Position numbers and translations under genes: made by a program. Source: Candidatus Woesearchaeota archaeon (GTDB taxonomy: Archaea; Nanobdellota; Nanobdellia; Woesearchaeales; 0-14-0-80-44-23). Taken from it: a DNA stretch of 64,000 nt. This document shows positions 1 to 53,664 of the stretch, piece after piece. Every line of letters begins with the position of its first letter. Position 1 is the first letter of the stretch. Under the pieces are notes generated by a model. The model was not told the origin of the DNA. It searched no databases and saw only the letters and a program-made list of their open reading frames with translations. The stretch spans positions 288,968 through 352,967 of the forward strand of contig JAVZCZ010000001.1 of assembly GCA_038874135.1 (NCBI GenBank), given 5' to 3'.

Positions 1-1793
1 CGTTTTATAAGTTGTGGAAACAACTTTTTATTTACCCAATAGGGATATGCATCAACATGCCACCACTTCTTATCTTCAGGAGAAGCATTTTGAAACAATT
101 CAAGATTCATATCTAAAATTCCTGCTTTGTAACCTTTGGCCCTCAAATAAGCTGATAAATAAGCTAGACTAAGAGGTGGAAATATTCCCCATGGAGGTGG
201 CATAATTAGAAGAACATCAACTCCGTCAAATCTTTTTTTGAAATCAAAATCTATCGGTATAATATTTGAATCTTTTGCTGGATCATAAAAATATTTTGAG
301 GTATCCCCGGTTGTATTTGAGTATTTATCTGAAACTTTTGAAACATTTGTTTTTTTATTGATGAGAGAATGTATTCTATTGAGTGTATATATTAAACCAT
401 TGTCTTTTATGAGTCTAAAAATCGTTTTAAGAGTTCTATTTCTACGATTGCAGTGTTCATGCCATTTTGTTTCAATATTTTTGACGGCCATTTCAAGTTC
501 TTGAGCTGAGAGGTAGTCTGTGCTTATTACGCTTTTGATGCTGCCATTATACTCACTCAGATTTTCAGTTATGAGTTTTTGCTGTTGTTTTAATTGTTCA
601 TAAAACTCAGTTCCTGGAAAGGGGGTAGCTATTGAAAACTGTGCTGAAAAAGGATCTATTTCATATAGGAATTTCTCAGTTTGAGATATGGTATCGTAGC
701 TTTCTCCAGGAAGTCCAAAAGTAAATGTTAAGTGGACTCTTATTCCAAGCTTTTTAGTGAATAGAATATTCTTCTTAGCTATCTTCAAATTAAGATTTTT
801 TTTAGAATTATCAACTATTTTTTGTGAGCCTGATTCAATCCCGTATTTAATTGCCCACAACCCTGCCTTTTTCATTGCAATCAATATTTCTTCATCCATT
901 AGGTCAGGTCTTGCCATTATTGCCCAGGGAACATTCAATTTTCTACGCTCAATTTCTCTGCATAGTTCCAGCATTCTTTCTTTACCGATATTGAATGTAT
1001 CGTCGTCAAAATAGATTGATTTGAAGCCCATTTTTTTGACTAGAAATTCCATCTCATTAACAACATCCTGTACACTTCTAATTCGGTAATTTCTTCCACT
1101 GTAAGCTATTTGAGGCCAGGCGCAGAATATGCAGTTAAAAGGGCATCCTCTACTCGCAAGCATTTGAGCACAGGGAAGAGGCATTTCTCCAGGAGAATCA
1201 AGGTATTTGTAAATAGGCACATCTCTTCTTTCAGGCCAGGGGAGCTCATCTAATCTACAAAGGGGACGCCGGTCTGTTCTTATTATAGATTCTGTTGTCC
1301 GGTATATTAAACCTTTTATTTTTTTGAAATCTGTTGTTTTTGTTTTTAGAGCTTCTGCAAGTTCTAGTAATGTGAATTCATACTCACCAAAAATGGCGAA
1401 ATCTATAAAAGGGTAAGAGATGAGGAACTCATCCCTTATCTCTATGCTTGGAGCTGCAACCGCTATATAAGTGTTGATATCTTTCTTTATTTTTTCCAAT
1501 AAGCACATATCATATTTTAAAGAGGGGGCTGAGGTTTCTGTGAATATCAGGTCTGGTCGGAATTCTCTTATTCTTTCTAAAAATTGGGCTTCGCTGATAT
1601 CTTCAGCTATTGCATCGATAAGTTTTGCTTCAAAACCATATTTTTTTAGAAGTGATGTAGCATATCCTAAAAAGAAGGGATAGGGTAGATAATCGCCTTC
1701 TTCATTAGTTTTGAGGTGGGGCCATCTGCTACCTGCCCGCACGCCTTTTCTGCCTTCTTGCTCCCACGGAAGGTTTGCTAAAAGTATTTTCAT
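1..1793 (-). CDS. Cobalamin (B12)-binding radical SAM protein, tandem-module form; C-terminus lies beyond the window start (partial)
   Basis: ATG at 1793 (minus). N-term MKILLANLPWEQEG... B12-binding signature, radical SAM motif SRGCPFNCIFC. I translated the minus frame down to position 1 without a stop, and the ORF track lists no complete minus ORF here. A second B12-binding-like start (VDVLLIMPPPWGIFPPLSLAYLSAYLRAKGY) begins near nt 220. Confidence 0.6.
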   Translation of the reverse strand, partial: MKILLANLPWEQEGRKGVRAGSRWPHLKTNEEGDYLPYPFFLGYATSLLKKYGFEAKLIDAIAEDISEAQFLERIREFRPDLIFTETSAPSLKYDMCLLEKIKKDINTYIAVAAPSIEIRDEFLISYPFIDFAIFGEYEFTLLELAEALKTKTTDFKKIKGLIYRTTESIIRTDRRPLCRLDELPWPERRDVPIYKYLDSPGEMPLPCAQMLASRGCPFNCIFCAWPQIAYSGRNYRIRSVQDVVNEMEFLVKKMGFKSIYFDDDTFNIGKERMLELCREIERRKLNVPWAIMARPDLMDEEILIAMKKAGLWAIKYGIESGSQKIVDNSKKNLNLKIAKKNILFTKKLGIRVHLTFTFGLPGESYDTISQTEKFLYEIDPFSAQFSIATPFPGTEFYEQLKQQQKLITENLSEYNGSIKSVISTDYLSAQELEMAVKNIETKWHEHCNRRNRTLKTIFRLIKDNGLIYTLNRIHSLINKKTNVSKVSDKYSNTTGDTSKYFYDPAKDSNIIPIDFDFKKRFDGVDVLLIMPPPWGIFPPLSLAYLSAYLRAKGYKAGILDMNLELFQNASPEDKKWWHVDAYPYWVNKKLFPQLIK

Positions 1794-1849
1794 TTTTCAG
1801 AGAAAAAAGCACTATGCTTATATATAAAACTTATTTTTATTATTTAAAA

Positions 1850-2698
1850 ATGAAAAAAGTAAAAAAGGTTTCCTTATACATCCCTGTTCTAAATCAGGAG
1901 AAATATCTAAAAAGGTGTCTTAAGGGCGTCCTATCACAAGATTATCCTATTTCAGAGATCATAATAGTGGATAATGGTTCAACAGATAGCTCAATTAAAA
2001 TCGTAAATCATTTTAGAAGAATAGATAAAAGAATTAAGGTAGTTAGGGAAAAAGAGAGGGGATTGGCTAATGCGAGAAATGCTGCATTAAAAGCAGCTAA
2101 ATCAACATTTATAGCGGCGGTAGATGCTGATTGTTTTCTAGAAAAGGATTGGCTTTCTAGAATTATGGCTAATTTTTCTGATAGAAAGATCGTTGGGGTT
2201 GGAGGTAAGCTTGTTGAAAATGATAAGTGGCGTGCTATTCATCTGAAACAGGAATGGGGAGAAGAGAAGTTGATAAATCCACCATTTCTGTTCGGATCAA
2301 ATACTGTATTCAGAACAAAGGTGCTTAAGAGCGTTGGTGGATATAATCCCATTTTTAAAACAAATTATGAAGATGTAGACATGTCTAGAAAGTTATTATC
2401 TAAAAATTTCAAACTAGTGTATGAGCCTAAAGCAGTTGCTCATCATATGAAAGTGGACAAAACTTTTTCTCTTTTACGCACTGTTTGGGCTTGGGGGTTT
2501 TACGGAAATGAGCCTAAGAACTTTGCGGATATACTGAAAAGAGTCATCTTTAATATCAAGATGCCCAGCAGTTTACTGTTTGAAGATTTAATAAATGGAA
2601 GGTTTACTTTTATTTTAACTGATCTACTCATATTTTTTTCTAACCCTTTTTTTGATTTAAAATATTATGTAGAGTACATCAAAAACAGATATTTTTAA
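1850..2698 (+). CDS. Family 2 glycosyltransferase (GT-A fold)
   Basis: MKKVKKVSLYIPVLNQEKYL...IIVDNGSTDSS...AVDADCF motifs typical of GT2. Longest ORF starts at TTG 1775; ATG at 1850 fits the usual GT2 N-terminus. Confidence 0.75.
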   Translation: MKKVKKVSLYIPVLNQEKYLKRCLKGVLSQDYPISEIIIVDNGSTDSSIKIVNHFRRIDKRIKVVREKERGLANARNAALKAAKSTFIAAVDADCFLEKDWLSRIMANFSDRKIVGVGGKLVENDKWRAIHLKQEWGEEKLINPPFLFGSNTVFRTKVLKSVGGYNPIFKTNYEDVDMSRKLLSKNFKLVYEPKAVAHHMKVDKTFSLLRTVWAWGFYGNEPKNFADILKRVIFNIKMPSSLLFEDLINGRFTFILTDLLIFFSNPFFDLKYYVEYIKNRYF

Positions 2699-2701
2699 AT
2701 A

Positions 2702-4672
2702 ATGCATAAATCTAAATGCCAGATTATGAGCAGAGTAATATTTTTTTCGCACAAAAAGATTTTTGAAAACGGGAATAATTCTGCTTCAGACATTAGATTT
2801 TTAGAAATGGCAAAAGTTCTTGTTCAAAATAATCATAAAGTAACGATTGCTGAAAAATTAAGAGAAAACGAAGAAGTCTTACTTGGAATAAGATTTGTTG
2901 GATGGAAAAATGTGCTTAGTTCTGACCTTTCAAAAGAGTATGATGTTGCAATAGTGCCAATTTGGACTACTGAGAAAGAAGTTCTAGACAGAATAAAAAA
3001 TATAGCGATTGTAGTAGACGCGTATGCTCCAATAGTTTTAGAGCAATCGAGTAGATATGCAAATAAAACGCCTAGTAGAAGAGAAGTTTCTGATTTTGTA
3101 AATTATGTTCTAACCAAATCCAATGTTTTATTATCAATGGCTGATTTTATTATGTGTGCTGGAGATAGACAAAAATTGTACTATACAGGAATATTAAGCG
3201 CCCTTGGAAGGATCAACCCGTTTTCATATGAAGAAAAGCTTATTGAATCAGTTCCATCAGGAGTTCATCTCAAAAGACCAGTTAATAAAAAAGAAGTATT
3301 TAAGAAAATAATTGGTGAAAATAAAAGAATAGTTTTGTGGCCCTCTACAATATTTCCTTGGTTTGATGCAGAAACTGCAATAAGAGCAATGAAGATAGTT
3401 GCAGAGGAAGAAAAAGAAGCGGTACTGGTATTCTTAGGCGCAACTGGTTTACCGAAAGACAGTTTAGGATATGAGGAAGCTGAGGAAGCGAAAAAACTTG
3501 CTGAAAAAGAAGGAATTTTGAATAAAAATGTTTTCTTTATAGAAAGAATTCCGTATCAAGATGTGGAATCTGCTTATTTAGAGTCGGAGATAGCATTAAT
3601 AACTTATCCGCCCGGATTTGAAACAGAGTTCGCATTTAGAACTAGAACTATTCATTGTATGTGGGCGGGTTTGCCGGTTATCTGCTCTGAAGGTGATGAA
3701 CTGGCTGAGATCATAAAAAGAGAAGGGCTCGGCGTAGTGGTTAAGCCTAAAGACCCTGAAGTACTTGCGAATTCAATAATAAGATTATTGAAAAATGAAC
3801 AACTAAGAGCTGAAATTGCAAAGAATGGACAAGAATATGTGTTTAAGAATTTTAGTTGGGAAAAAGTGTGTAAGCCATTAGAAGATTTTTGCAGTAAGCC
3901 CCGGATTAGTGAGTCAAAAAACTTTTTGACACCCTATGCAATAATAGATGAAAAGAATAGATTAATATGGCAGTTAGAGGAACATCTTGAGGACTATAAA
4001 TCAAAAGATGAAAAATCAAAACAAATAATACTGAAGAACGAGATGGAGATAGAAAAAGAGCAAAGAATAATTGAAGAGCAAAGTAAAGAAATAAAAAGAA
4101 TAAGCAGAAAATCTGAGCAAGTTATAAATGAGTTAAATAAAGAGATCAAGAATAGAGTTAAACACATAGAAAGTTTAGAAATAACAATACAACAACAAAA
4201 CCAAACAATCAAAAACCTAGAAAAAGAAATACAAAACAAAGAACAAACAATACAACAACAAAACCAAACAATCAAAAACCTAGAAAAAGAAATACAAAAC
4301 AAAGAACAAACAATACAACAACAAAACCAAACAATCAAAAACCTAGAAAAAGAAATACAAAACAAAGAACAAACAATACAACAACAAAACCAAACAATCA
4401 AAAACCTAGAAAAAGAAATACAAAACAAAGAACAAACAATACAACAACAAAACCAAACAATCAAAAACCTAGAAAAAGAAATACAAAACAAAGAACAAAC
4501 AATACAACAACAAAACCAAACAATCAAAAACCTAGAAAAAGAAATACAAAACAAAGAACAAACAATACAACAACAAAAAGAAAAACTAGATGAGATATTA
4601 AACTCGCGATGGTATAAGTTCGCTTCTAAAATTGATTCATTAAGCAAGAAATTAGGAATCATTAAAAAATAA
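2702..4672 (+). CDS. GT4-type glycosyltransferase with a C-terminal coiled-coil repeat extension
   Basis: Glycos_transf_1-like core (IERIPYQDVESAYLESEIALITYPPGFETEF...GLPVICSEGDELAEII) followed by about 6 perfect copies of a 21-aa unit TIQQQNQTIKNLEKEIQNKEQ. Confidence 0.7.
   Translation: MHKSKCQIMSRVIFFSHKKIFENGNNSASDIRFLEMAKVLVQNNHKVTIAEKLRENEEVLLGIRFVGWKNVLSSDLSKEYDVAIVPIWTTEKEVLDRIKNIAIVVDAYAPIVLEQSSRYANKTPSRREVSDFVNYVLTKSNVLLSMADFIMCAGDRQKLYYTGILSALGRINPFSYEEKLIESVPSGVHLKRPVNKKEVFKKIIGENKRIVLWPSTIFPWFDAETAIRAMKIVAEEEKEAVLVFLGATGLPKDSLGYEEAEEAKKLAEKEGILNKNVFFIERIPYQDVESAYLESEIALITYPPGFETEFAFRTRTIHCMWAGLPVICSEGDELAEIIKREGLGVVVKPKDPEVLANSIIRLLKNEQLRAEIAKNGQEYVFKNFSWEKVCKPLEDFCSKPRISESKNFLTPYAIIDEKNRLIWQLEEHLEDYKSKDEKSKQIILKNEMEIEKEQRIIEEQSKEIKRISRKSEQVINELNKEIKNRVKHIESLEITIQQQNQTIKNLEKEIQNKEQTIQQQNQTIKNLEKEIQNKEQTIQQQNQTIKNLEKEIQNKEQTIQQQNQTIKNLEKEIQNKEQTIQQQNQTIKNLEKEIQNKEQTIQQQNQTIKNLEKEIQNKEQTIQQQKEKLDEILNSRWYKFASKIDSLSKKLGIIKK
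4184..4580. repeat. Perfect 63-bp tandem repeat (about 6.3 copies) inside the GT4 gene, in frame
   Basis: The unit atacaacaacaaaaccaaacaatcaaaaacctagaaaaagaaatacaaaacaaagaacaaaca repeats head-to-tail with no mismatches visible. Confidence 0.9.
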
Positions 4673-4676
4673 GTGA

Positions 4677-5843
4677 TTAATGTTTTCTAAGAGACATTGC
4701 AGTTTCATACGCTTTTATAAGATTGTCTGTTGTAACATCCCAATTGTATTCCAACTCGGCTCTTTTTCTCGCTTCTTTTCCAAGCGTCTTTCTCATCTTT
4801 TCATCGTTTAAAAGAATTTTTATTCCTTTTGAAAGAGCTTCAACATCGCCTGCTTTAACCAGTATCCCTGCATTCCCCACCATTTTTTTAACTTCACCGA
4901 CATCACTAGCCACTATCGCTTTTCCTGCTGCCAAGTATTCAACTATTTTAAGAGGGCTCTTACACCTTGTTATCCCATTATCCTCAAAGCATGCCACTGC
5001 AATATCTGAAGCTGCAAGGTATTTTGGAACTTCCTCATGAGTCACATAACCAGTAAAAATTATCCTATCGGAAATTTCTAATTTTTCTGCCAAAGAAGTT
5101 AGTTTATGGGCTTCAGTTCCCCAGCCTACTATCATAAATGCTGCATCAGTTTTTTCATCAATAAGTTTTTTTGCAGCTCTTACAAAAAGCTCAGCATATT
5201 GAGCGCCATGCAATTGTCCTAGATATATTACAACAGGAGTGTTATGTTTTATTTTGTATTTATCCCTAATTTCACTCCCATCTATTTTTGGATTAAACTT
5301 ATTGAGATCTGCACCTACGTGAGCATCAAATATTCTTTCTTCCCTAACACCTAAAGAGAGAGCCAGATTTTTAATACCATCACTCGCAACTGAAACAGTA
5401 TCCACAAGCTTGGGAATAGTTCTTTCAACTAGGTTAAGATACTTTCCATAAAGCTGCGATGGAGGACTAAATAGATAAATTTGGTATTCCCAGTCATCCC
5501 AATCATAATGAACAGGCTTTCCAGCAAAATATGCCGCAAATATTGCCGGAAGAGATGCTATAGTAAAACATTTCTGGAAATGAATTACATCAGCCCACCT
5601 AGCAAGTTTATACATTTTATAAATATTTTTGAATATTGCCCATTTGCGTCTTTTAAAAGGAATCACTTCAAAATTGAAACGGTAATTGTTTAGCAGTCCT
5701 CTCTCCTGTTCAGGTAGTGGAAAATATACCAGCTTAACCTCATGTCCCTTCTCAGTCAACTTTTGTGCAATTTCAGTTATCCTAACAGTCCAGGGCTCTT
5801 TAGTTGAATAGATATCGTGAGGATGAACCATCAATATCTTCAT
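4677..5843 (-). CDS. GT4-type glycosyltransferase
   Basis: MKILMVHPHDIY... N-term, C-terminal GT1/GT4 signature (EDNGITRCKSPLKIVEYLAAGKAIVASDVGE). Longest ORF start is 5858. Confidence 0.7.
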   Translation of the reverse strand: MKILMVHPHDIYSTKEPWTVRITEIAQKLTEKGHEVKLVYFPLPEQERGLLNNYRFNFEVIPFKRRKWAIFKNIYKMYKLARWADVIHFQKCFTIASLPAIFAAYFAGKPVHYDWDDWEYQIYLFSPPSQLYGKYLNLVERTIPKLVDTVSVASDGIKNLALSLGVREERIFDAHVGADLNKFNPKIDGSEIRDKYKIKHNTPVVIYLGQLHGAQYAELFVRAAKKLIDEKTDAAFMIVGWGTEAHKLTSLAEKLEISDRIIFTGYVTHEEVPKYLAASDIAVACFEDNGITRCKSPLKIVEYLAAGKAIVASDVGEVKKMVGNAGILVKAGDVEALSKGIKILLNDEKMRKTLGKEARKRAELEYNWDVTTDNLIKAYETAMSLRKH

Positions 5844-5993
5844 TTTTAAACATCTCATTTATGAGCCGGGAAATAAGCTAAATCCTTTTCGCTTCTCCCA
5901 AAGCCACATATAAACATCTACTACCAATGTGAGTATAAGCAGGTAAATTAAAACAAAAAACCCAATAATTCTGGAATAATTTTTCATTTGTAA

Positions 5994-7106
5994 CTACCTA
6001 ATTAATCCTTTTGCTTTTGCTTCAGCATATGCCTTATCAAACTCATCCCGGGAATTAACTGAATTAGACCACCTAACCAGATCTTTTAAACCTTCCTCAA
6101 GAGTAACTCTCGGCATAAAATCTAGTCTGGATTTTAATTTGGATATGTCGGCAAAACAGTGCCTGACATCGCCCGGTCTAAATGTTTCTCTAATATCCGG
6201 CTTTAGATTGGCTCCATAGATTGAGATAAGCCTTTCAGCAACTTCTTTTATCGGAGTTGGAGTTCCTGAACCAACATTAAAAATCTGGTAATCCGCATTT
6301 TTTGATTCAAGAGAACGCACACAAACTTCTGCAACATCATATACTGATATGAAATCTCTAGTCTGAAGCCCGTCTTCATTAATTACGGGCGGGTTTCCAC
6401 TTTTTATTCTACTCATAAAAATAGCAGTAACTCCAGTATAAGGATTGTTAAGAGATTGCCTGGGACCATAAACATTAAAGAACCTAAGCGAAACAGATTT
6501 TATTCCATAAGTTGAACCAACTGTCATCACCATATCCTCCTGAGTTCTCTTGTTAATTGAATAGATTGAATTAGGAAAAGTATAATCATCTTCTGAAATG
6601 GCTACCGGAGTAATCTTACCATTGCATTTAGGACATAAAGGCTCCCAGATTTTTCTTTGAAGCTGCTCAACACTACGCAGCCCAGGCCTAACAAAGCCGC
6701 ACTTCTCGCAGTAATACTTTCCCTCACCATAACTGCTCATACTGGCAGCCACTATTATTTTTTTAACATTATTTTTTTTATTTATGATAAAATCAAGAAG
6801 GTTAGCTGTTCCCAGTACAGTATTATCTACATAATCATAAATTTTATACATGCTCTGAGCCACTCCAACAGAAGCCGCAAAATGAAAAACTGCATCAACA
6901 TCTTTCAGTGCCTTTTTCACATCATTTTTATTTCTCACATCTCCCCGAATAAACTCAGCATTCTGGTTTAAATAATCCGGCACCCCGCTGGGATGAACCT
7001 GCGGATCTAAGTTGTCTAAAATTCTCACATCATAACCACGCTCAACAAGTTTGTCCACTACGAAGCTACCTATAAAGCCTGCTCCACCTGTAACGAGAAC
7101 ATTCAT
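5994..7106 (-). CDS. NAD-dependent sugar epimerase/dehydratase (SDR family) with an internal CxxC...CxxC zinc-ribbon insertion
   Basis: MNVLVTGGAGFIGS Rossmann motif (ATG 7106; longest ORF starts at TTG 7127). Catalytic YxxxK region. Inserted segment YCEKCGFVRPGLRSVEQLQRKIWEPLCPKCNG. Confidence 0.7.
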   Translation of the reverse strand: MNVLVTGGAGFIGSFVVDKLVERGYDVRILDNLDPQVHPSGVPDYLNQNAEFIRGDVRNKNDVKKALKDVDAVFHFAASVGVAQSMYKIYDYVDNTVLGTANLLDFIINKKNNVKKIIVAASMSSYGEGKYYCEKCGFVRPGLRSVEQLQRKIWEPLCPKCNGKITPVAISEDDYTFPNSIYSINKRTQEDMVMTVGSTYGIKSVSLRFFNVYGPRQSLNNPYTGVTAIFMSRIKSGNPPVINEDGLQTRDFISVYDVAEVCVRSLESKNADYQIFNVGSGTPTPIKEVAERLISIYGANLKPDIRETFRPGDVRHCFADISKLKSRLDFMPRVTLEEGLKDLVRWSNSVNSRDEFDKAYAEAKAKGLIR

Positions 7107-7123
7107 TTTTTCACCTTCCCAAT

Positions 7124-8170
7124 TCAAACATTAAGAGATTCTTGAATAGTTGAGATATTCTGTTTTATCCATGCTAACATTATCTTAACGCCTTTTTGTG
7201 GCGAAGTAGAAGGCTTCCATGAAAAATGCTTTTCTGCCTTTCTTATGTCACTAATGTAAACCTTCTGGTCTCCTGCTCGCCAGGGCCCAAACTTATATGA
7301 AATCTTTTTTGAAAGAAGCTTCTCAAGAATTGAAATCAGCTCTAACAGAGAAAGCGTATTCTTTGGGCCTCCACCAATGTTATAGATTTGTCCCGCAGTT
7401 TTTTTACTCTTCAGAGCAAGTTCATAAGCTCTAACTAAATCCTTAACAAACAACACATCCCTAACCTGTTTGCCGTCTCCATAAAGAGTAAGAGGCAGGT
7501 TTAATGATGCAGCTATTGCAAACCAAGCCACCCAGCCCTGGTCTTCAATACCAAACTGCCTTGGACCATAAATGCAGGACTGCCTAAAAACAACTGTGGG
7601 CAGGCCATAAATGCGATAGTAATCTCTCACATACTGATCTGCACACCCCTTGCTGCAACCATAAGGACTGTGAAAGTCAATAGGCCTATGCTCGTCAATT
7701 GCAGTTATATTTTTATAAACATAGCGGCTCTGAGTTTCCGTTACCTTAACATCTTCCATCTGTCCATACACCTTGTTTGTGGAAGAGAAAATAAGCTTAG
7801 GGGTTTTCTTTGACTTTCTCGCCGCTTCAAGCACATTGAAAGTTCCTAATGCGTTGCTTTCAAAATCATATCTCGGATCAATTATTGAAGAAGTCATCGC
7901 TGTTTGTGCCGCCAAATGAATTACATAGTCTGTATTTCTAGTTTCTTTTTCAAGAAGCTTAATGTCAGTTCTTATGTCGGCTTTAACAAATCTGATCATA
8001 GGATAATCTTTTTTCAAAATTAAGAGATTATTCTTAGAACCTTTTCTTGAGAGATTATCTAACACGGTTACATCATATCCCTTATTAATGAAATATTCTG
8101 CAGTGTTAGAACCTATAAAGCCCGCTCCCCCCGTTATTAATATTCTAGGCCCATTCATTTTAGCGAACAT
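7124..8170 (-). CDS. NAD-dependent sugar epimerase/dehydratase (SDR family)
   Basis: RILITGGAGFIGSNTAEYFINKGYDVTVLDNL. Stop overlaps the downstream epimerase start, suggesting an operon. Confidence 0.7.
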   Translation of the reverse strand: MFAKMNGPRILITGGAGFIGSNTAEYFINKGYDVTVLDNLSRKGSKNNLLILKKDYPMIRFVKADIRTDIKLLEKETRNTDYVIHLAAQTAMTSSIIDPRYDFESNALGTFNVLEAARKSKKTPKLIFSSTNKVYGQMEDVKVTETQSRYVYKNITAIDEHRPIDFHSPYGCSKGCADQYVRDYYRIYGLPTVVFRQSCIYGPRQFGIEDQGWVAWFAIAASLNLPLTLYGDGKQVRDVLFVKDLVRAYELALKSKKTAGQIYNIGGGPKNTLSLLELISILEKLLSKKISYKFGPWRAGDQKVYISDIRKAEKHFSWKPSTSPQKGVKIMLAWIKQNISTIQESLNV

Positions 8171-8935: not shown

Positions 8936-8997
8936 AAAATAACCTTCTGCTATTTATTTAGAAAAATTTTTATATGAACACCTTCTTTTTTAGTATA

Positions 8998-10494
8998 ATG
9001 AAAATTTTGCTCATAAACCCGCTTTTTTATTTTAATGGACATCTGTTTAAAAAGAATTACAAAGAGATTAATCTGGGATTATTATACTTAGCATCTGTTG
9101 CGCAAAAAGAAGGTTTTTCTGTTAAAATAATAGCTTTAAATAAACTAGAGACTGAGCGCATAATAAAAAGAGAAAAACCAGACATTGTTGGAATAAGTTG
9201 TATGATAGGACAACAACGGGCCGGTCTTACTATTGCAAAAAAGGTTAAAAAAGTCAATAAGAAGATTATCGTGATAGTGGGAGGGTATTATCCTACTTTC
9301 AGGTATAAAAAGATTTTGGAACAAATACCTGAAGTAGATGTAGTAGTGATAGGTGAAGGTGAAGAATCTTTTAGTGAACTATTAAGATTAATAAATCAGA
9401 AAAAGTTTAATTATAACAATCTAAAAAAGATTAAAGGGATTGCATTTAAAGAGAATAAAAAAATTGTTTTTACAGGAAATCGCGAATTACCGAATTTAGA
9501 TAAATTGCCTTGGCCTAGTAGGACGCTTTGGAGAACAGTTAATTTCTTTGCTTCTCGAGGGTGTAGATTTCGATGTAGGTACTGTTCAATAACCAAATTT
9601 TATAGAAAAGTTGAAAGGTTTAGATCAGTAAAAAATGTTATAGAAGAATTAAAGTGGTTAGAAAAGTTGGGGGAAAAAGATGTTAGTATTAATGACGATA
9701 ATTTCTTAGATAATTTGGATTGGTTTTATAAATTTAGGATATTTTATGTAAAGCAAAGATTAAAGATAAGGAGTGGGATAATGAGTAAACTATTAAATGT
9801 TTTAAGATTAAAAAAACTTAGGTATCTAAAGGAGTGTAATATTAATGAAATCAGTATAGGTTTGCAAGGGATAGGAGATGAAGAAAATAAATTTTTTAGA
9901 ACTGGACACACACTTAAATTATTAGAAGAATTTAATAAAAAACTAATAAGAGAAAACGTTGAATTTGATGCTATTAGTATATTTCTAATAATTAATAGTG
10001 GTGTCAAGCATGAGAACGAGGAATCAATTTTTAATAAGGTAAAGAGAGTAGTAGATCTTTTACCTGAAGGGGCTATCCCTAAGAAAAATAAGCTTGCATT
10101 GTACCCGGGAACAGATATTGCTGAATATTTCATAAAAAAGGGATACTACACAGAGAGTGAAAGCGTATTTAAAGATGATGACTATTTTAATTATTCTTAT
10201 GCAGACCTCAATGAAAGAAAACTTACTGACTTGATAGCTACTGTTGATCAACTATATGAAGAAAGAGCAAAAAGAGAAAGATGGAAAAAGATACCAAAGA
10301 GAATAAGTGCAAATTTTCTTAGTACGGTGAATGCTTACTTGATTATGCTAATGCGCTCTTCTATGAGTTTATGGTTGAAGATCCGTATACTTATGTTCAT
10401 AATATATATAGTTATTAAAGAGTTTGTTTCGTTCAGAAATCCAATTAAAAATGATTATAAATTGGGAAGAATGATCAAAATTAAATATTTCTGA
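8998..10494 (+). CDS. Cobalamin (B12)-binding radical SAM protein
   Basis: MKILLINPLFYF... B12-binding N-term. Radical SAM motif FASRGCRFRCRYCS (Cx3Cx2C). Longest ORF starts at 8974. Confidence 0.7.
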   Translation: MKILLINPLFYFNGHLFKKNYKEINLGLLYLASVAQKEGFSVKIIALNKLETERIIKREKPDIVGISCMIGQQRAGLTIAKKVKKVNKKIIVIVGGYYPTFRYKKILEQIPEVDVVVIGEGEESFSELLRLINQKKFNYNNLKKIKGIAFKENKKIVFTGNRELPNLDKLPWPSRTLWRTVNFFASRGCRFRCRYCSITKFYRKVERFRSVKNVIEELKWLEKLGEKDVSINDDNFLDNLDWFYKFRIFYVKQRLKIRSGIMSKLLNVLRLKKLRYLKECNINEISIGLQGIGDEENKFFRTGHTLKLLEEFNKKLIRENVEFDAISIFLIINSGVKHENEESIFNKVKRVVDLLPEGAIPKKNKLALYPGTDIAEYFIKKGYYTESESVFKDDDYFNYSYADLNERKLTDLIATVDQLYEERAKRERWKKIPKRISANFLSTVNAYLIMLMRSSMSLWLKIRILMFIIYIVIKEFVSFRNPIKNDYKLGRMIKIKYF

Positions 10495-10530
10495 AGAAGG
10501 GTTAGATGGGACTTGGACTTTAAATAAGTG

Positions 10531-10641
10531 CTATCCCAAACTGCTACTACCGGTAACGTGATAATTACACGAGCTAGTTATAGTATCAGTCATTGCAATC
10601 TTTCTAAGAGTGGGCTTTTTCCATACAATCTTGCGTTTCAT
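10531..10641 (-). CDS. Candidate RiPP precursor peptide (36 aa), unannotated small ORF
   Basis: My own translation: MKRKIVWKKPTLRKIAMTDTITSSCNYHVTGSSSLG. It lies 95 nt downstream of the HprK-like gene on the same strand. A TATA-like element (gtttatttataaac, 10661-10674) sits about 26 nt upstream of the ATG. The WKKP leader resembles the PqqA N-terminus. Confidence 0.35.
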   Translation of the reverse strand: MKRKIVWKKPTLRKIAMTDTITSSCNYHVTGSSSLG

Positions 10642-10736
10642 TTTATAAAAAATAATTATTGTTTATTTATAAACTTTTCGCAATAGCTTGGTTTAAACTT
10701 TTATGCTATTTTTAAACATGAAGATAAGCTAACCTT

Positions 10737-11588
10737 TTAAAGATTTGATGAATTGTTTGTAACAAAATTTGTTACGAAGGATACGACAGAATTGTCTTTT
10801 TTGAATTTAAGAGTATACGCTTTAACTGAGTTAACACACGACATCACCAATTTTATGAATTTGGCCTTTGATTCAAAGCTGTAAGGTATTATTGAATTTT
10901 TTAATAAATTATTCAAAAAACTATTTATTCTTATATCTTGTATACTATTATGATTAGATTTTTTAATGAAGAATATATATGCGAGTTCTCCTTTTTTATT
11001 AGAAAAAGATTTCGCACTGCTCTGTGCAGGAGTTCCATAACAGTAAAATTTTCCATTTTTTTTAATGATTATATTAAGTTCGTCGCTAAAACAATTAAAT
11101 CCTGATTTTTTAAACAGTTTACATAGAGTACTTTTTCCTGTTCCGCAGGGACCGACAAATAGAACTACTCTTTTGCGATTGTGCAAATCAAACATAACTC
11201 CGGAGGAATGAACTAAAAAGCTATTTTTTTTCGTCAAATACATCGCCAGTATTCTTTTATTAAAAATGTTTTCAATATCTGTCTTATTAGAAAAGAAGCT
11301 AACTTTATTTTTTTCCTTTATTACGCCCCACTCGCCAGTTTTAGGTTTTATAATTAACTTAGAATTATATTCTAAAAATTTAACTGCAAAGTCTCTGCTC
11401 ACAAGTTTAGATCCTGGAGGGACACAAAAATATCTATAATTCTTCATTAAGAAGGTATAATCCTCTTTTTTATTAGTTCTAAATTGAGCAAATCTATTTA
11501 AGTTAAGATTTTTTTCAGAAACTACCTTAACTACTACTGGACCTATTTTTATTTTAAATTTTTTCATATAAATCACAGTTAATAACAA
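10737..11588 (-). CDS. HPr kinase-related P-loop protein (HprK-like, peptide-maturation associated)
   Basis: Walker A FVGPCGTGKSTLCKLF, in HprK C-terminal-domain-like context. Same strand as the rSAM/SPASM and PqqD genes, and overlaps the rSAM stop. Confidence 0.55.
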   Translation of the reverse strand: MLLTVIYMKKFKIKIGPVVVKVVSEKNLNLNRFAQFRTNKKEDYTFLMKNYRYFCVPPGSKLVSRDFAVKFLEYNSKLIIKPKTGEWGVIKEKNKVSFFSNKTDIENIFNKRILAMYLTKKNSFLVHSSGVMFDLHNRKRVVLFVGPCGTGKSTLCKLFKKSGFNCFSDELNIIIKKNGKFYCYGTPAQSSAKSFSNKKGELAYIFFIKKSNHNSIQDIRINSFLNNLLKNSIIPYSFESKAKFIKLVMSCVNSVKAYTLKFKKDNSVVSFVTNFVTNNSSNL

Positions 11589-12580
11589 TTGTTAAAAAAG
11601 AGTTTAGCAAGTTTACACAAGCGTGGAATCTTTGCTGAGTTAGATGATTTTGGATCGAAGGATTTGATTTCTTGTTCTGCAAAGCCAGGACACCAAAAAC
11701 ATATATTACGGTATTTACAACTAGCACACTTTTTGAATTTCTTTATGTAACTTTGTCTAATGTATTTTAAAGTTTTAAAAGCAATTCTCAGATTCGGAAG
11801 AGCTTTTACTCTTTTTTTTCTTAAGAGGAAGCAGAGCCCCATATTTCCTTTTGAATCAATATGAAAAGAGCGGATACCTGCACTGCAATTAAAAACTTCA
11901 GCTGAATGTTTTAATACTTTTAAGTTTATTTTGTATCTATTACAAAACAAATCAAAAAGATCGTGTGTTGATAAACTAACCTTTCTAGCATTTTTTCCGA
12001 TGATAATTGGATTAAACTCTATCCTTTTTTTTGTAAAGTTCAAACTAAGATTATCAAGTTTTTTAAAGTATTTCTTTAACTGATAAAGAGGAAGCGTTCT
12101 GAGTTCTAGATTAAATTTCTTTAAGGATTTAAGATTATTTAGTACAGTAGTGTATGCTGCTTTTCCAGTTATTTTTCTATACGTAATGTTATCGACTCCG
12201 TACAATGTGATTCTTATAAGCATAGGAGGTTTTTTCTTAAAAGTATCTAATATTTTTTTTGTAACAAAAGACCCATTTGAGTTTATAGTTATTCTATTAC
12301 CAAACAGGGTGTACGCATAATTATAAATTTCTAAAAAGTTTGGATGAAGTAGAGGTTCTCCTCCTGTTAGAATTATATTTGTAACACCGAGTCGATAGGC
12401 CTGTTTAAGAATCTTTTTAAATTTGATCACGGGTAATTCTGAGCTAGTAGCTTGTTTAATATTCTTAAAATAGCAATGTTTACATTTGAAGTTGCATTTC
12501 TGTGTTATTTCCAAATGAAGAAGATTAGGGGGAAATTCCTGATTTAAGATAGTTTCAGATTCTTTATCGTAGCTGTACAT
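11579..12580 (-). CDS. Radical SAM peptide maturase with C-terminal SPASM-type Cys cluster
   Basis: LEITQKCNFKCKHCYF (Cx3Cx2C), TGGEPLL. C-terminal CASCKYRNICFWCPGFAEQE auxiliary cluster motif. Confidence 0.7.
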   Translation of the reverse strand: MYSYDKESETILNQEFPPNLLHLEITQKCNFKCKHCYFKNIKQATSSELPVIKFKKILKQAYRLGVTNIILTGGEPLLHPNFLEIYNYAYTLFGNRITINSNGSFVTKKILDTFKKKPPMLIRITLYGVDNITYRKITGKAAYTTVLNNLKSLKKFNLELRTLPLYQLKKYFKKLDNLSLNFTKKRIEFNPIIIGKNARKVSLSTHDLFDLFCNRYKINLKVLKHSAEVFNCSAGIRSFHIDSKGNMGLCFLLRKKRVKALPNLRIAFKTLKYIRQSYIKKFKKCASCKYRNICFWCPGFAEQEIKSFDPKSSNSAKIPRLCKLAKLFFNNCY

Positions 12581-12581
12581 T

Positions 12582-12854
12582 TTAGGATTTTATTAAGATT
12601 TTTAAAGACAGTGCTTTTTTAATAAAGTTCATAAAATCTTTATCTAATTTACTTGCACTAATATCAAATTTCCGGCTTAGAATTTTTTTAGTTTTAGAAA
12701 TCCCATTTTTTACAACACCTTTTAATATGATCGATGCAGTTTTATTTAAGATAAAGTAATTAGGAGAATTTTTTCTAGTTAGTATCAGAAAGTACTGATT
12801 ATTATTAACTGAATAGAATCTGGCTTTTCCATTAAAAAAATATTTTTTTGACAT
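12582..12854 (-). CDS. PqqD-family RiPP recognition element (peptide chaperone)
   Basis: 90 aa. YFILNKTASIILKGVVKNGISKTKKILSRKFDISASKLDKDFMNFIKKAL matches the PqqD fold pattern. The radical SAM gene starts 1 nt downstream. Confidence 0.6.
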   Translation of the reverse strand: MSKKYFFNGKARFYSVNNNQYFLILTRKNSPNYFILNKTASIILKGVVKNGISKTKKILSRKFDISASKLDKDFMNFIKKALSLKILIKS

Positions 12855-12909
12855 AATTAATATTAAAAAGGCAGTAAGCTTTTTAAATATTGCTATTTTA
12901 ATTTTTAAA

Positions 12910-14394
12910 GTGAATAAGATAAATAATACAAAAGAAAGAATTGATAAAGAACTAGTTTTTCTAATAATCTTATCAATTTTTTTAAGATTTATATGGCTAT
13001 ATGCTGCTATAGAACGAGATGAAGGAATTTTTGGTTATAGTGCATTTAAACTATCGATTAATGAATTAAAAATTGTGGATAATAAAATTCCTATTGTTTA
13101 TATCATCTATTTATTAATAATGATTATACACAAATTACTTTCCTTTAATTTTCCTGTAATTATTAGTGTACGAATTGTTAATAACCTCCTATTCCTAATA
13201 GCAGTAGTTTGCTTATATAGGTTTTTTTCAGAGGAAAAAAGAGAAATTGCCTTTTTTTCTACTATCTTTTTCATAATATTCATGAATCTTCCTGTTTTTG
13301 AAGGACAACTTGCTATGACTGAATCATTGGGAATGAATTTTTTTGTGTTAGGATTAATATATATGCTTAGATATGCTAAACATTATGAACCTGCTTATTT
13401 TAGAATATCATTTTTTTTCTTTTTACTGGCCGCTTTATTAAAGTACCCTTTTTTGTTCCTTTCAGTTCATACGATTATATTTTTTATAAAAAACAGAACA
13501 GGTTTTAAAAAAGTTGCTCTTTTTTTAATTACTTATTTTATAACAGCGATTCTGATGCTTGGTTTCTATTTTATTGCATTTCCTGAAAATGTTTTATTTT
13601 TTATTATTGAAAGTATAAACGTATTAAATGAGGTCCCTGAAATTTACAGTTTTAGTAGTCTTAAGTTAGTTCTTATCGAGGGTTTCTTTTTTATAATTTT
13701 AGTTGTTTTAGGTGTTTTAGAGTATTATAAAGTAGAGAAAAAGGAGAAAATTTTTTATTTGTTTAAGAATATGTTGCTTATCTCATTGGTACTCTCATTG
13801 ATTCCTCCTTCGTTTGGTCATTATTTTCTGATAAATTCAATAGCTGTAGCATTTTTTGCTGGAGTTGGAATACTATCCTTAAAAAGGTTTAGCATTAAAT
13901 TAGTGAAGTATATCATAATTGTAATTCTTTTCCTTGCAATTATAATCTCAGTTTATTTTTCAATGTTACAATATCCTAATCTTAACATTAATTTTAAAGG
14001 AATTAACGTAGTATATAATGATTTCTTAGATTTGAAACAGCAGTTAGAAGTTTCAAAATTTTTAGAAAATCATATTAAACAAAACGAGAGCTTTGCCATG
14101 TGTGGTTTTGATGGAACTTTAGGTTGGCTGTCAGAACGGCGTATTTTTTCTGGAGTTAGAAAATTTTGTTATATTCCAAACGGAAAAGAAAATGAAAATA
14201 AAGTTTTAAAAATATTAAAAGATAGATACCTTTCAAGAATTATAATTTATGATGTAGCTAAAATTTTAAGTTGCGAACTACCAGATAATATTAAATATCT
14301 GGTTCTATTTACTAATGCATATGATGAAACTTTGTTTAAATGTACTGGTAAGATTGAGATGAAATATGATAATTTATTGATTTGCAAATGTTAA
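12910..14394 (+). CDS. Polytopic membrane protein, GT-C (PMT/ArnT-like) glycosyltransferase candidate
   Basis: About 11 predicted TM helices followed by a C-terminal soluble domain. GTG start. Shares the IPPSFGHYF module with 8240..8935. Confidence 0.45.
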   Translation: MNKINNTKERIDKELVFLIILSIFLRFIWLYAAIERDEGIFGYSAFKLSINELKIVDNKIPIVYIIYLLIMIIHKLLSFNFPVIISVRIVNNLLFLIAVVCLYRFFSEEKREIAFFSTIFFIIFMNLPVFEGQLAMTESLGMNFFVLGLIYMLRYAKHYEPAYFRISFFFFLLAALLKYPFLFLSVHTIIFFIKNRTGFKKVALFLITYFITAILMLGFYFIAFPENVLFFIIESINVLNEVPEIYSFSSLKLVLIEGFFFIILVVLGVLEYYKVEKKEKIFYLFKNMLLISLVLSLIPPSFGHYFLINSIAVAFFAGVGILSLKRFSIKLVKYIIIVILFLAIIISVYFSMLQYPNLNINFKGINVVYNDFLDLKQQLEVSKFLENHIKQNESFAMCGFDGTLGWLSERRIFSGVRKFCYIPNGKENENKVLKILKDRYLSRIIIYDVAKILSCELPDNIKYLVLFTNAYDETLFKCTGKIEMKYDNLLICKC

Positions 14395-17571: not shown

Positions 17572-18174
17572 ATGGTTGAAATAAAGGCTTTTAACAGGTG
17601 GAGCACGCAGGGCATCGTAGTTAGTGATCCTGGCTTGAAGGATTATATTACTCTTGAGCCCAAGATTGCTCCTAGGAGTAACGGCACATATGCTGGAAAC
17701 AAGTTTTACAAGTCTAAGATTTTTATTGTTGAGCGCCTTATGAATAAGCTGATGGTTGCTGGGCATAGGGCTAAGAAGCACACTTTTACTTCTTCCCTGC
17801 TTACTGGGAAGAGCCAGAGCGCTTACAAGCTTACTGAGAGAGCTTTAGAGATTATTGAGCAGAAGACCAAGAAGAATCCCATTCAGGTTTTGGTTACTGC
17901 TATTGAGAACGCTGCTCCCCGTGAGGGCATAGTTTCTATAGAGTATGGAGGTGCCAGGTATCCTAAGGCAGTGGATGTGAGTCCTCAGCGCAGGATTGAC
18001 TTAGCGCTTAGGCTTATGGTGCAGGGTGCTTATGCTAAGACTTTTAACAATCCTAAGAAGAAGTTTGAGGAGATGCTTGCTGCTGAGATAATAGACGCTT
18101 ATAATCTCAGTCCGAACTCAAATGCGATATCTAAGAAGCTTATGACTGAGAGGCAGGCTGAAGCTTCAAGGTAA
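17572..18174 (+). CDS. rps7: 30S ribosomal protein uS7 (S7P)
   Basis: MVEIKAFNRWS...LMVAGHRAKKHTF...IENAAPREG typical archaeal S7. GC content higher than upstream block. Confidence 0.85.
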   Translation: MVEIKAFNRWSTQGIVVSDPGLKDYITLEPKIAPRSNGTYAGNKFYKSKIFIVERLMNKLMVAGHRAKKHTFTSSLLTGKSQSAYKLTERALEIIEQKTKKNPIQVLVTAIENAAPREGIVSIEYGGARYPKAVDVSPQRRIDLALRLMVQGAYAKTFNNPKKKFEEMLAAEIIDAYNLSPNSNAISKKLMTERQAEASR

Positions 18175-53511: not shown

Positions 53512-53664
53512 TTGAAAAAGAGAATAACTATAACTATTGAAGAGGAGCTCTTTGAAAGATTCAGGAGTTATTGTTCTCAAAACGCTATGAAAGTATCCTC
53601 AAAGATTGAAAAGCTTATTGAAGAATTTCTTAACAGTGAGAACAATGAGAGCTCTGTGAAATGA
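53512..53664 (+). CDS. Small ribbon-helix-helix (CopG/Arc-like) DNA-binding protein, unannotated, TTG start
   Basis: My own translation: (M)KKRITITIEEELFERFRSYCSQNAMKVSSKIEKLIEEFLNSENNESSVK. This is the beta-strand-then-helices RHH pattern. The stop overlaps the ATG of the giant ORF (ATGA). Confidence 0.4.
   Translation: MKKRITITIEEELFERFRSYCSQNAMKVSSKIEKLIEEFLNSENNESSVK

What the first reader, a model, noticed from the sequence alone, without database searches (positions are those of the whole stretch)
1..1793. Tandem fusion of two cobalamin-binding radical SAM modules in one ORF
Reading the minus strand from the ATG at 1793, a complete B12-binding plus radical SAM unit of about 480 aa (MKILLANLPW..., GCPFNCIFC) is followed without a stop by a linker. 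The frame was checked by hand down to nt 1. After the linker comes a second N-terminal B12-binding signature (VDVLLIMPPPWGIFPPLSLAYLSAYLRAKGYKAGILDMNLE) that continues past the window edge. Two B12-rSAM catalytic modules in a single polypeptide is uncommon. The gene sits at the edge of a glycosylation locus, so it could be a bifunctional methyltransferase acting on a glycan, lipid or peptide.
Basis: seen in the sequence. Interest (0 to 1): 0.55.

Follow-up and report, generated by a model that had tools for sequence, protein, structure and literature searches.

The report
Fused double radical-SAM glycan-tailoring enzyme
This is a real, conserved gene that joins two different B12-type radical SAM enzyme units into one 1004-residue protein inside a sugar-polymer export locus, and it belongs to a large family, which I could not find described in the literature, where such units are strung together in many combinations.

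Summary
Window 1-1793 (minus strand) is an uninterrupted 597-codon frame: a complete B12-binding/radical SAM unit, a linker, and the start of a second unit.

The full protein (P0001, 1004 aa, one residue different) is in three other assemblies. Its second unit is complete and has its own CxxxCxxC motif. Fourteen orthologues (40-69% identity, archaea and Omnitrophota) keep both cysteine triads invariant. An assembly artefact is therefore excluded.

The two units share only 27% identity. Module 1 is HpnJ/BchE/AprD4-like (non-methylating relatives). Module 2 resembles class-B methylases. Neither reaches any curated family cutoff.

The gene lies in the middle of a conserved cassette, not at its edge: glycosyltransferases, mod1-mod2, three SPASM/twitch radical SAM genes, a Wzt_C protein, and Wzt/Wzm.

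In other genomes the two modules are separate adjacent genes. Elsewhere they are fused to SPASM modules, to Wzt_C, or to a new galactose-mutarotase-fold domain that also decorates the transporter ATPase. Chains of up to five radical SAM modules exist.

The most likely role is consecutive radical tailoring of a lipid-linked glycan before ABC export. "Bifunctional methyltransferase" is not established. I found no literature on this system.

The parts
1..1793 (-). 5' part (codons 1-597 of 1004) of the two-module radical SAM gene. It runs off the window's left edge.
   Evidence: Open frame. Differs by one residue from P0001, 1004 aa. 99.95% DNA identity to L001/L002/L003.
1716..1745 (-). N-terminal signature GVRAGSRWPH of module 1 (residues 17-26).
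   Evidence: At least 90% conserved in 14-15 two-module orthologues, and present in single-module relatives.
1359..1664 (-). Module 1 Rossmann-type B12-binding domain (residues 44-145).
   Evidence: Pfam PF02310, 39.8 bits, cutoff 32.1. Beta-alpha repeats in the AF2 model.
666..1154 (-). Module 1 radical SAM core (residues 214-376). The CxxxCxxC motif is at nt 1122-1145 (C217, C221, C224).
   Evidence: Pfam PF04055, 74.6 bits. The three Cys are invariant in 14 orthologues.
399..665 (-). Module 1 C-terminal region (residues 377-465).
   Evidence: Covered by the HpnJ-model alignment, residues 20-465. Folded up to about residue 450 in the AF2 model.
219..398 (-). Inter-module linker (residues ~466-525).
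   Evidence: Varies in length by 0-75 residues across orthologues. pLDDT below 50 for residues 451-501. The motif FYDPxK..IxPIDFD..RF is conserved among the four closest orthologues, so the junction is translated.
3..218 (-). Start of module 2 (residues 526-597): first strands and helices of the second B12-binding domain.
   Evidence: Local mod2 HMM, 93 bits. Pfam B12-binding E 0.014 on the fragment. In full-length P0001 the domain spans 537-683.
1794..1849 (.). 56-nt divergent intergenic region, with TATA-like TTTATATATAA at about nt 1818-1829.
   Evidence: Read from the sequence. The GT2 gene starts at 1850 on the + strand.
1850..2698 (+). GT2-family glycosyltransferase, divergent neighbour.
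   Evidence: Pfam Glycos_transf_2 on the identical L001 gene.
2702..4672 (+). GT1/GT4-family glycosyltransferase. Its C-terminal region carries a perfect 63-bp x 6.3 repeat at 4183-4578.
   Evidence: Pfam on the L001 homologue. Tandem repeat. Translations compared.
4677..8170 (-). GT4 glycosyltransferase (4677-5858) and two NAD-dependent sugar epimerase/dehydratase genes (5994-7127, 7124-8170).
   Evidence: Pfam on the L001/L003 homologues. ORFs.
8974..10494 (+). Another B12-binding radical SAM gene (506 aa), of neither the mod1 nor the mod2 type.
   Evidence: Pfam B12-binding 83.9 bits and Radical_SAM 57.5 bits. Local HMM scores 90 and 86 bits.
11579..12580 (-). Radical SAM gene (333 aa).
   Evidence: Pfam Radical_SAM 80.9 bits and Fer4_12.
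12910..14394 (+). Weak match to the PMT_2 family of GT-C type glycosyltransferases. Probable far end of the glycan locus within the window.
   Evidence: Pfam PMT_2, 23.2 bits, E 8.7e-5, below the 26.1-bit cutoff. PMT_2 genes recur in related loci.

Best explanation
The ORF encodes a genuine 1004-residue enzyme made of two different, individually complete class-B (B12-binding-domain) radical SAM modules joined by a flexible linker. It is the fused form of a gene pair (mod1, mod2) that in other genomes sits as two adjacent genes in the same order. The pair belongs to a conserved cassette: Wzm/Wzt ABC exporter, a carbohydrate-binding domain (Wzt_C or the new 'domain X'), mod1, mod2, and one to about ten SPASM/twitch radical SAM genes, surrounded by glycosyltransferases and sugar-nucleotide enzymes. 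[quoted passage not shown] The two modules, each using its own [4Fe-4S]/SAM site, then carry out two consecutive radical modifications of sugar C-H positions. Module 1 probably performs a non-methylating rearrangement, dehydration or ring contraction, as proposed or shown for HpnJ and AprD4. Module 2 probably performs a cobalamin-dependent C-methylation. The downstream, translationally coupled SPASM/twitch enzymes add further steps. The tailored glycan, possibly its non-reducing-end cap, is then read by the Wzt C-terminal carbohydrate-binding domain and exported. Shown here: the fusion, the intact motifs, the cassette and the domain sharing. Inferred: the glycan substrate, the order of steps and the chemistry.
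Against: No biochemical or genetic data exist for any member. Neither module reaches a curated family cutoff, so the chemistry is extrapolated from distant relatives. AprD4 carries a B12-like domain but, to my knowledge, does not use cobalamin, so cobalamin use by either module is unproven. Many hosts (DPANN archaea, Omnitrophota) are, to my knowledge, poor cofactor producers. SPASM enzymes and module 2's second-best family are typical of peptide maturation. This protein itself carries neither Wzt_C nor domain X. The domain-type matching statistic rests on only one independent Wzt_C-type lineage (L001 and L002 are the same organism). Galactose-mutarotase-like folds also occur in non-carbohydrate proteins such as the YidC periplasmic domain. 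The rest of the cassette lies outside the window and is known only from near-identical contigs.
Confidence: 0.55

Rival explanations
1. Assembly or sequencing artefact: two adjacent genes were merged because a stop codon or frameshift was lost.
For: Split versions do exist in nature. In L010 the two modules are in the same frame and separated by a single TAA, so one base change converts one form into the other.
Against: The open junction is identical in three other assemblies. Fourteen orthologues at 40-69% identity keep one ORF, and the four closest conserve amino-acid motifs inside the linker. Longer fusions of the same modules occur.
Confidence: 0.02
2. Peptide (RiPP-type) maturase: the two modules and the SPASM enzymes hypermodify a ribosomal peptide, as PoyB/PoyC/PoyD do for polytheonamide, and the ABC-2 transporter exports it.
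For: Module 2 hits RiPP C-methyltransferase models: TIGR03975 at 138 bits and ApyD at 130 bits. SPASM domains are typical of peptide maturases. Small ORFs of 71-73 aa follow the SPASM gene in L004 and L007.
Against: All RiPP-model scores are far below their cutoffs. The SPASM proteins start their CxxxCxxC motif at residue 40-65, which leaves no room for an RRE-sized leader-binding domain. No small ORF is called in L001 or L005. The small ORFs in L004 and L007 look from their sequences like signal-peptide/transmembrane proteins. The partner domains are Wzt_C and a galactose-mutarotase fold. The constant neighbours are glycosyltransferases, sugar epimerases and UDP-glucose dehydrogenase.
Confidence: 0.1
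3. Membrane-lipid or glycolipid head-group tailoring, such as an HpnJ- or calditol-synthase-like ring contraction or ladderane/GDGT-type lipid chemistry, rather than tailoring of a polysaccharide.
For: Module 1's best model is HpnJ, and it also hits the ladderane B12 radical SAM model at 131 bits. The SPASM neighbours weakly hit tetraether synthase Tes at 40-58 bits. HpnJ and Cds act on sugar head groups of lipids.
Against: HpnJ scores 254 bits against a 577.6 cutoff. No hopanoid or isoprenoid-lipid gene is called within 10 kb of the gene in L001. The cassette is shared by archaea and bacteria, whose lipids differ. The exporter is TagH/Wzt-like and carries a carbohydrate-binding domain.
Confidence: 0.15
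4. The modules tailor soluble nucleotide-sugar precursors before glycosyl transfer (as, to my knowledge, DesII does), not the assembled lipid-linked glycan.
For: The locus contains NDP-sugar epimerase/dehydratase genes. Several known sugar-acting radical SAM enzymes work on small molecules; AprD4, for example, was solved with its substrate paromamine.
Against: Relatives of both modules are fused to polymer-reading domains shared with the exporter ATPase. That is hard to explain if the substrate is a soluble monomer.
Confidence: 0.15

Closest known systems
HpnJ (TIGR03471), hopanoid-associated B12-binding radical SAM protein
   Same: It is the best-scoring curated family for module 1, with an end-to-end alignment (residues 20-465, 254 bits). 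It has the same B12-domain plus radical SAM layout. It is proposed to act on a sugar (glucosamine ring contraction) attached to a lipid, and it is a non-methylase.
   Different: The score is less than half the equivalog cutoff of 577.6. There is no hopanoid gene context. The host is an archaeon. The module is fused to a second module and embedded in a Wzm/Wzt glycan cassette.
AprD4 (PDB 6fd2), radical SAM 1,2-diol dehydratase of apramycin biosynthesis
   Same: It is the closest solved structure by sequence (E 1.2e-27) and by fold (TM about 0.8 normalised to the target). It has an N-terminal B12-like domain plus a radical SAM barrel, and it acts on a sugar C-H.
   Different: About 21% identity. 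The NCBIfam AprD4 model scores 115 bits against a cutoff of 500. AprD4 is a single-module, small-molecule antibiotic enzyme that, to my knowledge, does not use cobalamin.
Class-B cobalamin-dependent radical SAM methylases (TokK, CysS, TsrM, PhpK, MgmA; also GenK and MoeK5)
   Same: Both modules share the domain order and fold. Module 2's best curated hits are the PhpK and RiPP C-methylase models. GenK and MoeK5 are listed among class-B methylases in gentamicin and moenomycin biosynthesis (PMC9204698); to my knowledge both methylate sugar carbons.
   Different: All scores are far below the cutoffs. All characterised members are single-module proteins. Cobalamin use and methyl transfer by either module are untested.
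FbiC (fused CofG+CofH F0 synthase)
   Same: It is a precedent for two radical SAM domains in one polypeptide that also occur as two separate genes in other organisms and act on the same pathway intermediate (PMC11917521).
   Different: It is not homologous beyond the superfamily level, has no B12-binding domains, works in cofactor biosynthesis, and is a fixed pair rather than part of a combinatorial set.
Cap-dependent Wzm/Wzt O-antigen export (E. coli O9a WbdD, A. aeolicus WzmWzt)
   Same: The locus encodes Wzm and a Wzt whose C-terminal domain is Wzt_C. The stand-alone Wzt_C protein matches the A. aeolicus carbohydrate-binding domain (E 1e-4). In that system a chemical modification of the glycan terminus is read by the domain and licenses export (PMC9445017; PMC3482155).
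   Different: The known caps are made by conventional kinases, methyltransferases or Kdo transferases. Here the candidate tailoring enzymes are radical SAM modules, the host is an archaeon, and many relatives replace Wzt_C with an unrelated galactose-mutarotase-fold domain.

Membership tests
Class B (B12-binding domain) radical SAM enzymes | N-terminal Rossmann-type B12-binding domain (PF02310) preceding the radical SAM core | tested here: met
   Module 1 scores 39.8 bits at residues 44-145. In P0001 there are two stretches totalling 73.1 bits, the best at 537-683.
Class B (B12-binding domain) radical SAM enzymes | Radical SAM core with a CxxxCxxC cluster motif | tested here: met
   C217/C221/C224 and C750/C754/C757 are all invariant in 14 orthologues.
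Class B (B12-binding domain) radical SAM enzymes | Fold similarity to solved class-B structures | tested here: met
   Foldseek hits to TsrM, OxsB, MgmA, CysS and TokK at E 1e-16 to 1e-20, and AprD4 at 3e-23.
Class B (B12-binding domain) radical SAM enzymes | Cobalamin actually bound and required | not testable with these tools
   I know of no sequence motif that is diagnostic. To my knowledge AprD4 shows the domain can persist without cobalamin.
HpnJ (TIGR03471) | Score at or above the equivalog cutoff (577.6 bits) | tested here: not met
   254 bits.
HpnJ (TIGR03471) | Hopanoid biosynthesis gene neighbourhood | tested here: not met
   The genes called within 10 kb of the gene in L001 are glycosyltransferases, epimerases, radical SAM genes and Wzm/Wzt.
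BchE (TIGR02026) | Score at or above the cutoff (481 bits) | tested here: not met
   170.6 bits for module 1 and 115.9 bits for module 2.
PhpK-family P-methyltransferase (TIGR04479) | Score at or above the cutoff (600 bits) | tested here: not met
   144.2 bits for module 2 and 130.3 bits for module 1.
RiPP maturation radical SAM C-methyltransferase (TIGR03975) | Score at or above the cutoff (281.85 bits), with a precursor peptide or RRE in the locus | tested here: not met
   137.6 bits. No small ORF is called in L001. There is no RRE-sized N-terminal extension on the SPASM neighbours.
AprD4-family diol dehydratase (NF033070) | Score at or above the cutoff (500 bits) | tested here: not met
   115.3 bits, although AprD4 is the closest solved structure.
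ABC-transporter-dependent (Wzm/Wzt) glycan assembly locus | ABC-2 permease, plus an ATPase with a C-terminal carbohydrate-binding domain, plus glycosyltransferases in one locus | tested here: met
   L001 has ABC2_membrane, ABC_tran+Wzt_C, GT2 and GT4. These genes lie beyond the window's left edge, on near-identical contigs.
ABC-transporter-dependent (Wzm/Wzt) glycan assembly locus | The product is a polyprenyl-linked glycan whose modified terminus is read by the binding domain | not testable with these tools
   This needs glycan chemistry. It is supported only indirectly by the domain sharing.
Fused two-radical-SAM enzymes of the FbiC type | Two radical SAM domains in one chain, with split homologues elsewhere | tested here: met
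   Fused in P0001 and split in L010 and L035. This is an analogy only, with no specific homology to CofG or CofH.

The most novel reading that the evidence does not exclude
The gene is one configuration of an undescribed modular system in which radical SAM modules (two class-B types plus SPASM/twitch types) are concatenated in many orders, with up to five catalytic modules per polypeptide and up to about ten further paralogues per operon. The system is physically keyed to a Wzm/Wzt exporter, because the enzymes and the exporter share the same carbohydrate-binding domain (Wzt_C or a new galactose-mutarotase-fold domain). It would make a surface glycan hypermodified by radical chemistry (C-methylated, rearranged or cross-linked sugars). 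That would be a glycan counterpart of polytheonamide-type peptide hypermodification, widespread in Omnitrophota, DPANN and other uncultured archaea.
Probability: 0.35. Interest if true: 0.8.

Novelty: new variant of a known kind. Interest (0 to 1): 0.6.

Why it matters
All characterised class-B radical SAM enzymes I am aware of are single-module proteins that work on small molecules, peptides or lipids. Here two different modules are fused, and across relatives they are recombined with each other, with SPASM modules and with carbohydrate-binding domains that are also found on the exporter ATPase.

If the glycan assignment holds, radical C-H chemistry is a routine way of tailoring exported polysaccharides in large uncultured groups: at least 582 species-representative genomes carry module 1 relatives.

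That would predict unusual sugars, such as C-methyl, deoxy or carbocyclic sugars, on the surfaces of ultra-small symbionts and archaea.

The Wzt cap-recognition model would also extend beyond O-methyl, phosphate and Kdo caps.

The fused proteins also give enzymologists natural two-to-five-site scaffolds in which partner enzymes and their order are written in the gene architecture.

Tried and rejected
- **Assembly artefact:** rejected.
- **Recent tandem duplication:** rejected. The modules share 27% identity and score on different families.
- **Membership of a curated family:** HpnJ, BchE, PhpK, AprD4, RiPP C-methylase and the ladderane model were all tested and all score below cutoff.
- **SPASM neighbours as anaerobic sulfatase maturases:** I considered this because sulfatase-family genes occur in L004, L005 and L007. 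No sulfatase-maturase model is among the 25 NCBIfam hits listed for each, and L001 has no sulfatase gene within 10 kb.
- **Small ORFs after the SPASM gene in L004 and L007 as RiPP precursors:** they are homologous to each other but look from their sequences like signal-peptide/transmembrane proteins, and no such ORF is called in L001 or L005.
- **Literature searches that found no description of the fusion or the cassette:** radical SAM + cobalamin + Wzt (0 papers); 'two/tandem/dual radical SAM domains' (only FbiC relevant); B12 radical SAM + polysaccharide; Omnitrophota + radical SAM; radical SAM + O-antigen + C-methyl; radical SAM + Wzm.
- **Homology search with domain X:** it returned only three close proteins. 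The model therefore used an alignment that included domX-mod1 fusion proteins.
- **Relative orientation of the two modules:** cannot be taken from the AF2 model (pTM 0.54).
Full report
**1. The observation**

Translating window 1793->1 on the minus strand gives 597 codons with no stop. The ATG at 1793 is the first ATG after an in-frame stop two codons upstream. An A/T-rich, TATA-like TTTATATATAA lies about 25-35 nt upstream, within a 56-nt divergent spacer that ends at a GT2 gene starting at 1850.

Pfam places a B12-binding domain at residues 44-145 and a Radical_SAM core at 214-376. The cluster motif is C217-x3-C221-x2-C224.

The last ~72 residues give only a weak B12-binding hit on their own (E 0.014). 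They score 93 bits against an HMM built from the second module of orthologues.

**2. The complete protein**

A database protein, P0001, is 1004 aa and is named by NCBI 'MAG: radical SAM protein [Nitrososphaeria archaeon]'. It matches the window fragment over its whole length with one substitution, T29N.

Its C-terminal half is a complete second module. B12-binding lies at 537-683, Radical_SAM at 745-907, and CISRCKFC at 750-757.

The gene is found on three other contigs: GCA_038871545.1, GCA_038880835.1 and a Logan assembly of SRR27170999. Window 1-4263 is 99.95% identical to them.

Fourteen full-length orthologues at 40-69% identity, from archaeal and Omnitrophota MAGs, keep the single ORF. 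All six cluster cysteines are invariant. The linker varies by 0-75 residues. The four closest orthologues conserve a peptide motif inside the linker, so the junction is translated.

The fusion is real.

**3. The two modules are different enzymes**

They share 27% identity over 319 residues.

- **Module 1** aligns end to end with the HpnJ model (254 bits, cutoff 577.6), then with BchE (171 bits).
- **Module 2** scores best on PhpK-type (144 bits, cutoff 600) and RiPP C-methyltransferase models (138 bits, cutoff 282).

No curated family is reached.

HpnJ and BchE are the textbook non-methylating class-B enzymes. HpnJ is proposed to contract a glucosamine ring on a glycolipid (PMC9204698, PMC13459092).

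By sequence and by fold, the closest solved structure is AprD4, a sugar 1,2-diol dehydratase, solved in complex with its substrate paromamine. It is followed by TsrM, OxsB, MgmA, CysS and TokK.

The AF2 model has mean pLDDT 82.6. It shows two well-folded Rossmann-plus-barrel modules and a low-confidence linker at 451-501. With pTM 0.54, the mutual orientation of the modules is not defined.

**4. Genomic setting**

The window edge cuts the locus in half. On the near-identical contig L001 the order is:

- radical SAM gene, B12 radical SAM gene, PMT_2, two epimerases, GT4
- GT1 and GT2 (divergent)
- mod1-mod2, then three SPASM/twitch radical SAM genes (416, 416 and 396 aa)
- on the opposite strand: a 395-aa Wzt_C protein, a nucleotidyltransferase, Wzt (ABC_tran + Wzt_C), Wzm (ABC2_membrane), GT2 and GT4

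The fusion gene and the first SPASM gene overlap by ATGA.

Inside the window, the locus continues to about 14.4 kb with a further B12 radical SAM gene (8974-10494), a radical SAM gene (11579-12580) and an ORF with a weak PMT_2 match, 23.2 bits against a 26.1 cutoff (12910-14394).

Orthologues in four other contigs show the same kind of neighbourhood. A GT4 gene lies upstream; SPASM genes or further B12 radical SAM genes lie downstream; Wzm/Wzt, PMT_2, sulfatase/phosphodiesterase-family genes and UDP-glucose dehydrogenase lie nearby.

**5. A combinatorial family**

They are mostly Omnitrophota and Woesearchaeota/Nanoarchaeota-type archaea.

An exhaustive HMMER search of 1.84 billion representatives gave 61,816 hits at E <= 1e-3 and 10,039 hits at E <= 1e-30.

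I classified the best 150 representatives, and the 240 proteins from the two homology searches, with HMMs I built for mod1, mod2, the SPASM neighbours, Wzt_C and an unknown ~230-aa 'domain X'. Roughly half of the top 150 carry two or more radical SAM modules. Examples:

| Architecture | Example or count |
|---|---|
| mod2-mod2 | 27 representative clusters |
| mod1-mod2 | 17 clusters at 90% identity |
| mod2 x 3, mod2 x 4 | P0242 (2096 aa, four CxxxCxxC) |
| SPASM-like + mod2 x 4 | P0241 (2331 aa, five CxxxCxxC) |
| mod1-mod2-SPASM | P0251, which equals this gene fused to its downstream neighbour |
| domX-mod1-mod2 | P0245 |
| domX-mod1-SPASM-mod2 | P0247 |
| mod1 + several SPASM | P0299 |

In L010 and L035, mod1 and mod2 are separate adjacent genes in the same order.

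Across 87 loci the recurrent operon is: wzm | ATPase-(domX)n or ATPase-Wzt_C | domX | mod1 | mod2 | SPASM x 1-10. Mod1 co-occurs with SPASM genes in 61 loci, with mod2 in 37 and with the transporter in 32.

Tandem class-B modules are therefore not rare in sequence space. I could find no paper that describes them or the cassette.

**6. What the substrate is**

Three lines of evidence point to a carbohydrate polymer handled by the exporter.

- **Wzt_C fusions.** Module-2-type enzymes occur fused to Wzt_C (P0201 62 bits, P0231 43 bits). The stand-alone Wzt_C protein of this locus matches the A. aeolicus Wzt carbohydrate-binding domain.
- **Matching domain types.** The binding-domain type on the ATPase and on the enzymes agrees in all 18 informative loci: 16 with domX and 2 with Wzt_C. 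The two Wzt_C loci are the same organism, so this evidence is suggestive only.

**7. Proposed mechanism**

A polyprenyl-linked glycan is built by the adjacent glycosyltransferases. It is then modified at sugar C-H positions by module 1, which is most likely non-methylating (rearrangement, dehydration or ring contraction). Module 2 follows, most likely with a cobalamin-dependent C-methylation. The translationally coupled SPASM/twitch enzymes add further steps. The Wzt binding domain then reads the product and the transporter exports it.

Fusion would fix a 1:1 stoichiometry and keep successive steps close together.

- **Shown:** the fusion, the intact motifs, the cassette, the split and fused variants, and the domain sharing and fold.
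- **Inferred:** the substrate, the order of steps, cobalamin use and the chemistry.

My confidence that the fusion is real is about 0.97. For a glycan substrate it is about 0.65, and for the specific chemistry about 0.25.

**8. Rivals**

- **Artefact:** about 0.02.
- **Peptide/RiPP maturation:** about 0.1. All RiPP-model hits are below cutoff, the SPASM proteins have no RRE-sized extension, and no precursor-like ORF is called in L001 or L005.
- **Lipid or glycolipid head-group chemistry:** about 0.15. The resemblance to HpnJ and the ladderane model supports it, but there is no lipid gene context and the cassette spans both domains of life.
- **Nucleotide-sugar tailoring:** about 0.15. It is disfavoured by the fusions to polymer-reading domains.

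**9. Verdict**

This is a new variant of a known enzyme kind (class-B radical SAM) and part of a modular, exporter-linked system that I could not find described. Interest is moderate to high: the protein is already deposited but uncharacterised, and its wider family makes concrete, testable predictions.

Noticed in passing
window 4183-4578 (inside the glycosyltransferase ORF 2702-4672, + strand): A perfect 63-bp tandem repeat of 6.3 copies (100% matches) encodes 21-residue units (TIQQQNQTIKNLEKEIQNKEQ) that I judge from the sequence to be coiled-coil-like. The other assemblies (L001, L003) have about 1.3 copies, giving a 543-aa protein against 656 aa here. It could be a collapsed repeat in short-read assemblies or a real length polymorphism. 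From memory, the WbdD coiled coil acts as a chain-length ruler in E. coli O9a, so a variable coiled coil on a glycosyltransferase in a Wzm/Wzt locus may set glycan length.
   Followed up: partly
L004:13001-15916 (next to P0007 at 10001-12895): Two two-module (mod1-mod2) genes lie back to back, giving four class-B modules in a row. The second gene has Ser in place of the middle Cys of the module 1 motif (GCLYHSSLC), so that module may be catalytically dead.
   Followed up: partly
L010:4716-7652: mod1 (stop TAA at 6207-6209) and mod2 (ATG at 6213) are in the same reading frame, separated by a single stop codon and one further codon. This could be a recent split, a sequencing error or stop-codon read-through.
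   Followed up: partly
Proteins P0241, P0242, P0243, P0246, P0285, P0299: These are polypeptides of 1,900-2,700 aa carrying three to five radical SAM modules, each with its own CxxxCxxC motif. Loci such as L022, L025, L039 and L045 hold eight to twelve SPASM radical SAM gene fragments in tandem.
   Followed up: partly
L004:17115-17336 and L007:14107-14322: Two homologous 71-73-aa proteins sit directly after the SPASM gene and before a phosphodiesterase-family gene. From their sequences they appear to have a signal-peptide-like N-terminus, a conserved AYIDPGTGGL motif and a hydrophobic segment.
   Followed up: no
window 53661-62870 (+): A 3069-aa ORF with several Ig-like domains (Ig_Rha78A_N, Big_3_3, Big_13, Y_Y_Y). 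It is probably a giant surface protein.
   Followed up: partly
window 19550-21487 (-): A single ORF fuses an amino-acid permease (residues 8-413) to a class I SAM methyltransferase domain (residues ~454-610).
   Followed up: no
window 15625-17430 (+): A YcaO-family gene (150 bits) lies between the glycan locus and ribosomal protein S7 (17572-18174).
   Followed up: no
window 8856 onwards, compared with L001: Beyond about 8.9 kb the window no longer aligns with the near-identical contig L001. Both carry a B12 radical SAM gene, a radical SAM gene and a PMT_2-like gene there, but in different sequence and arrangement. The far side of the locus appears to be a strain-variable region.
   Followed up: partly
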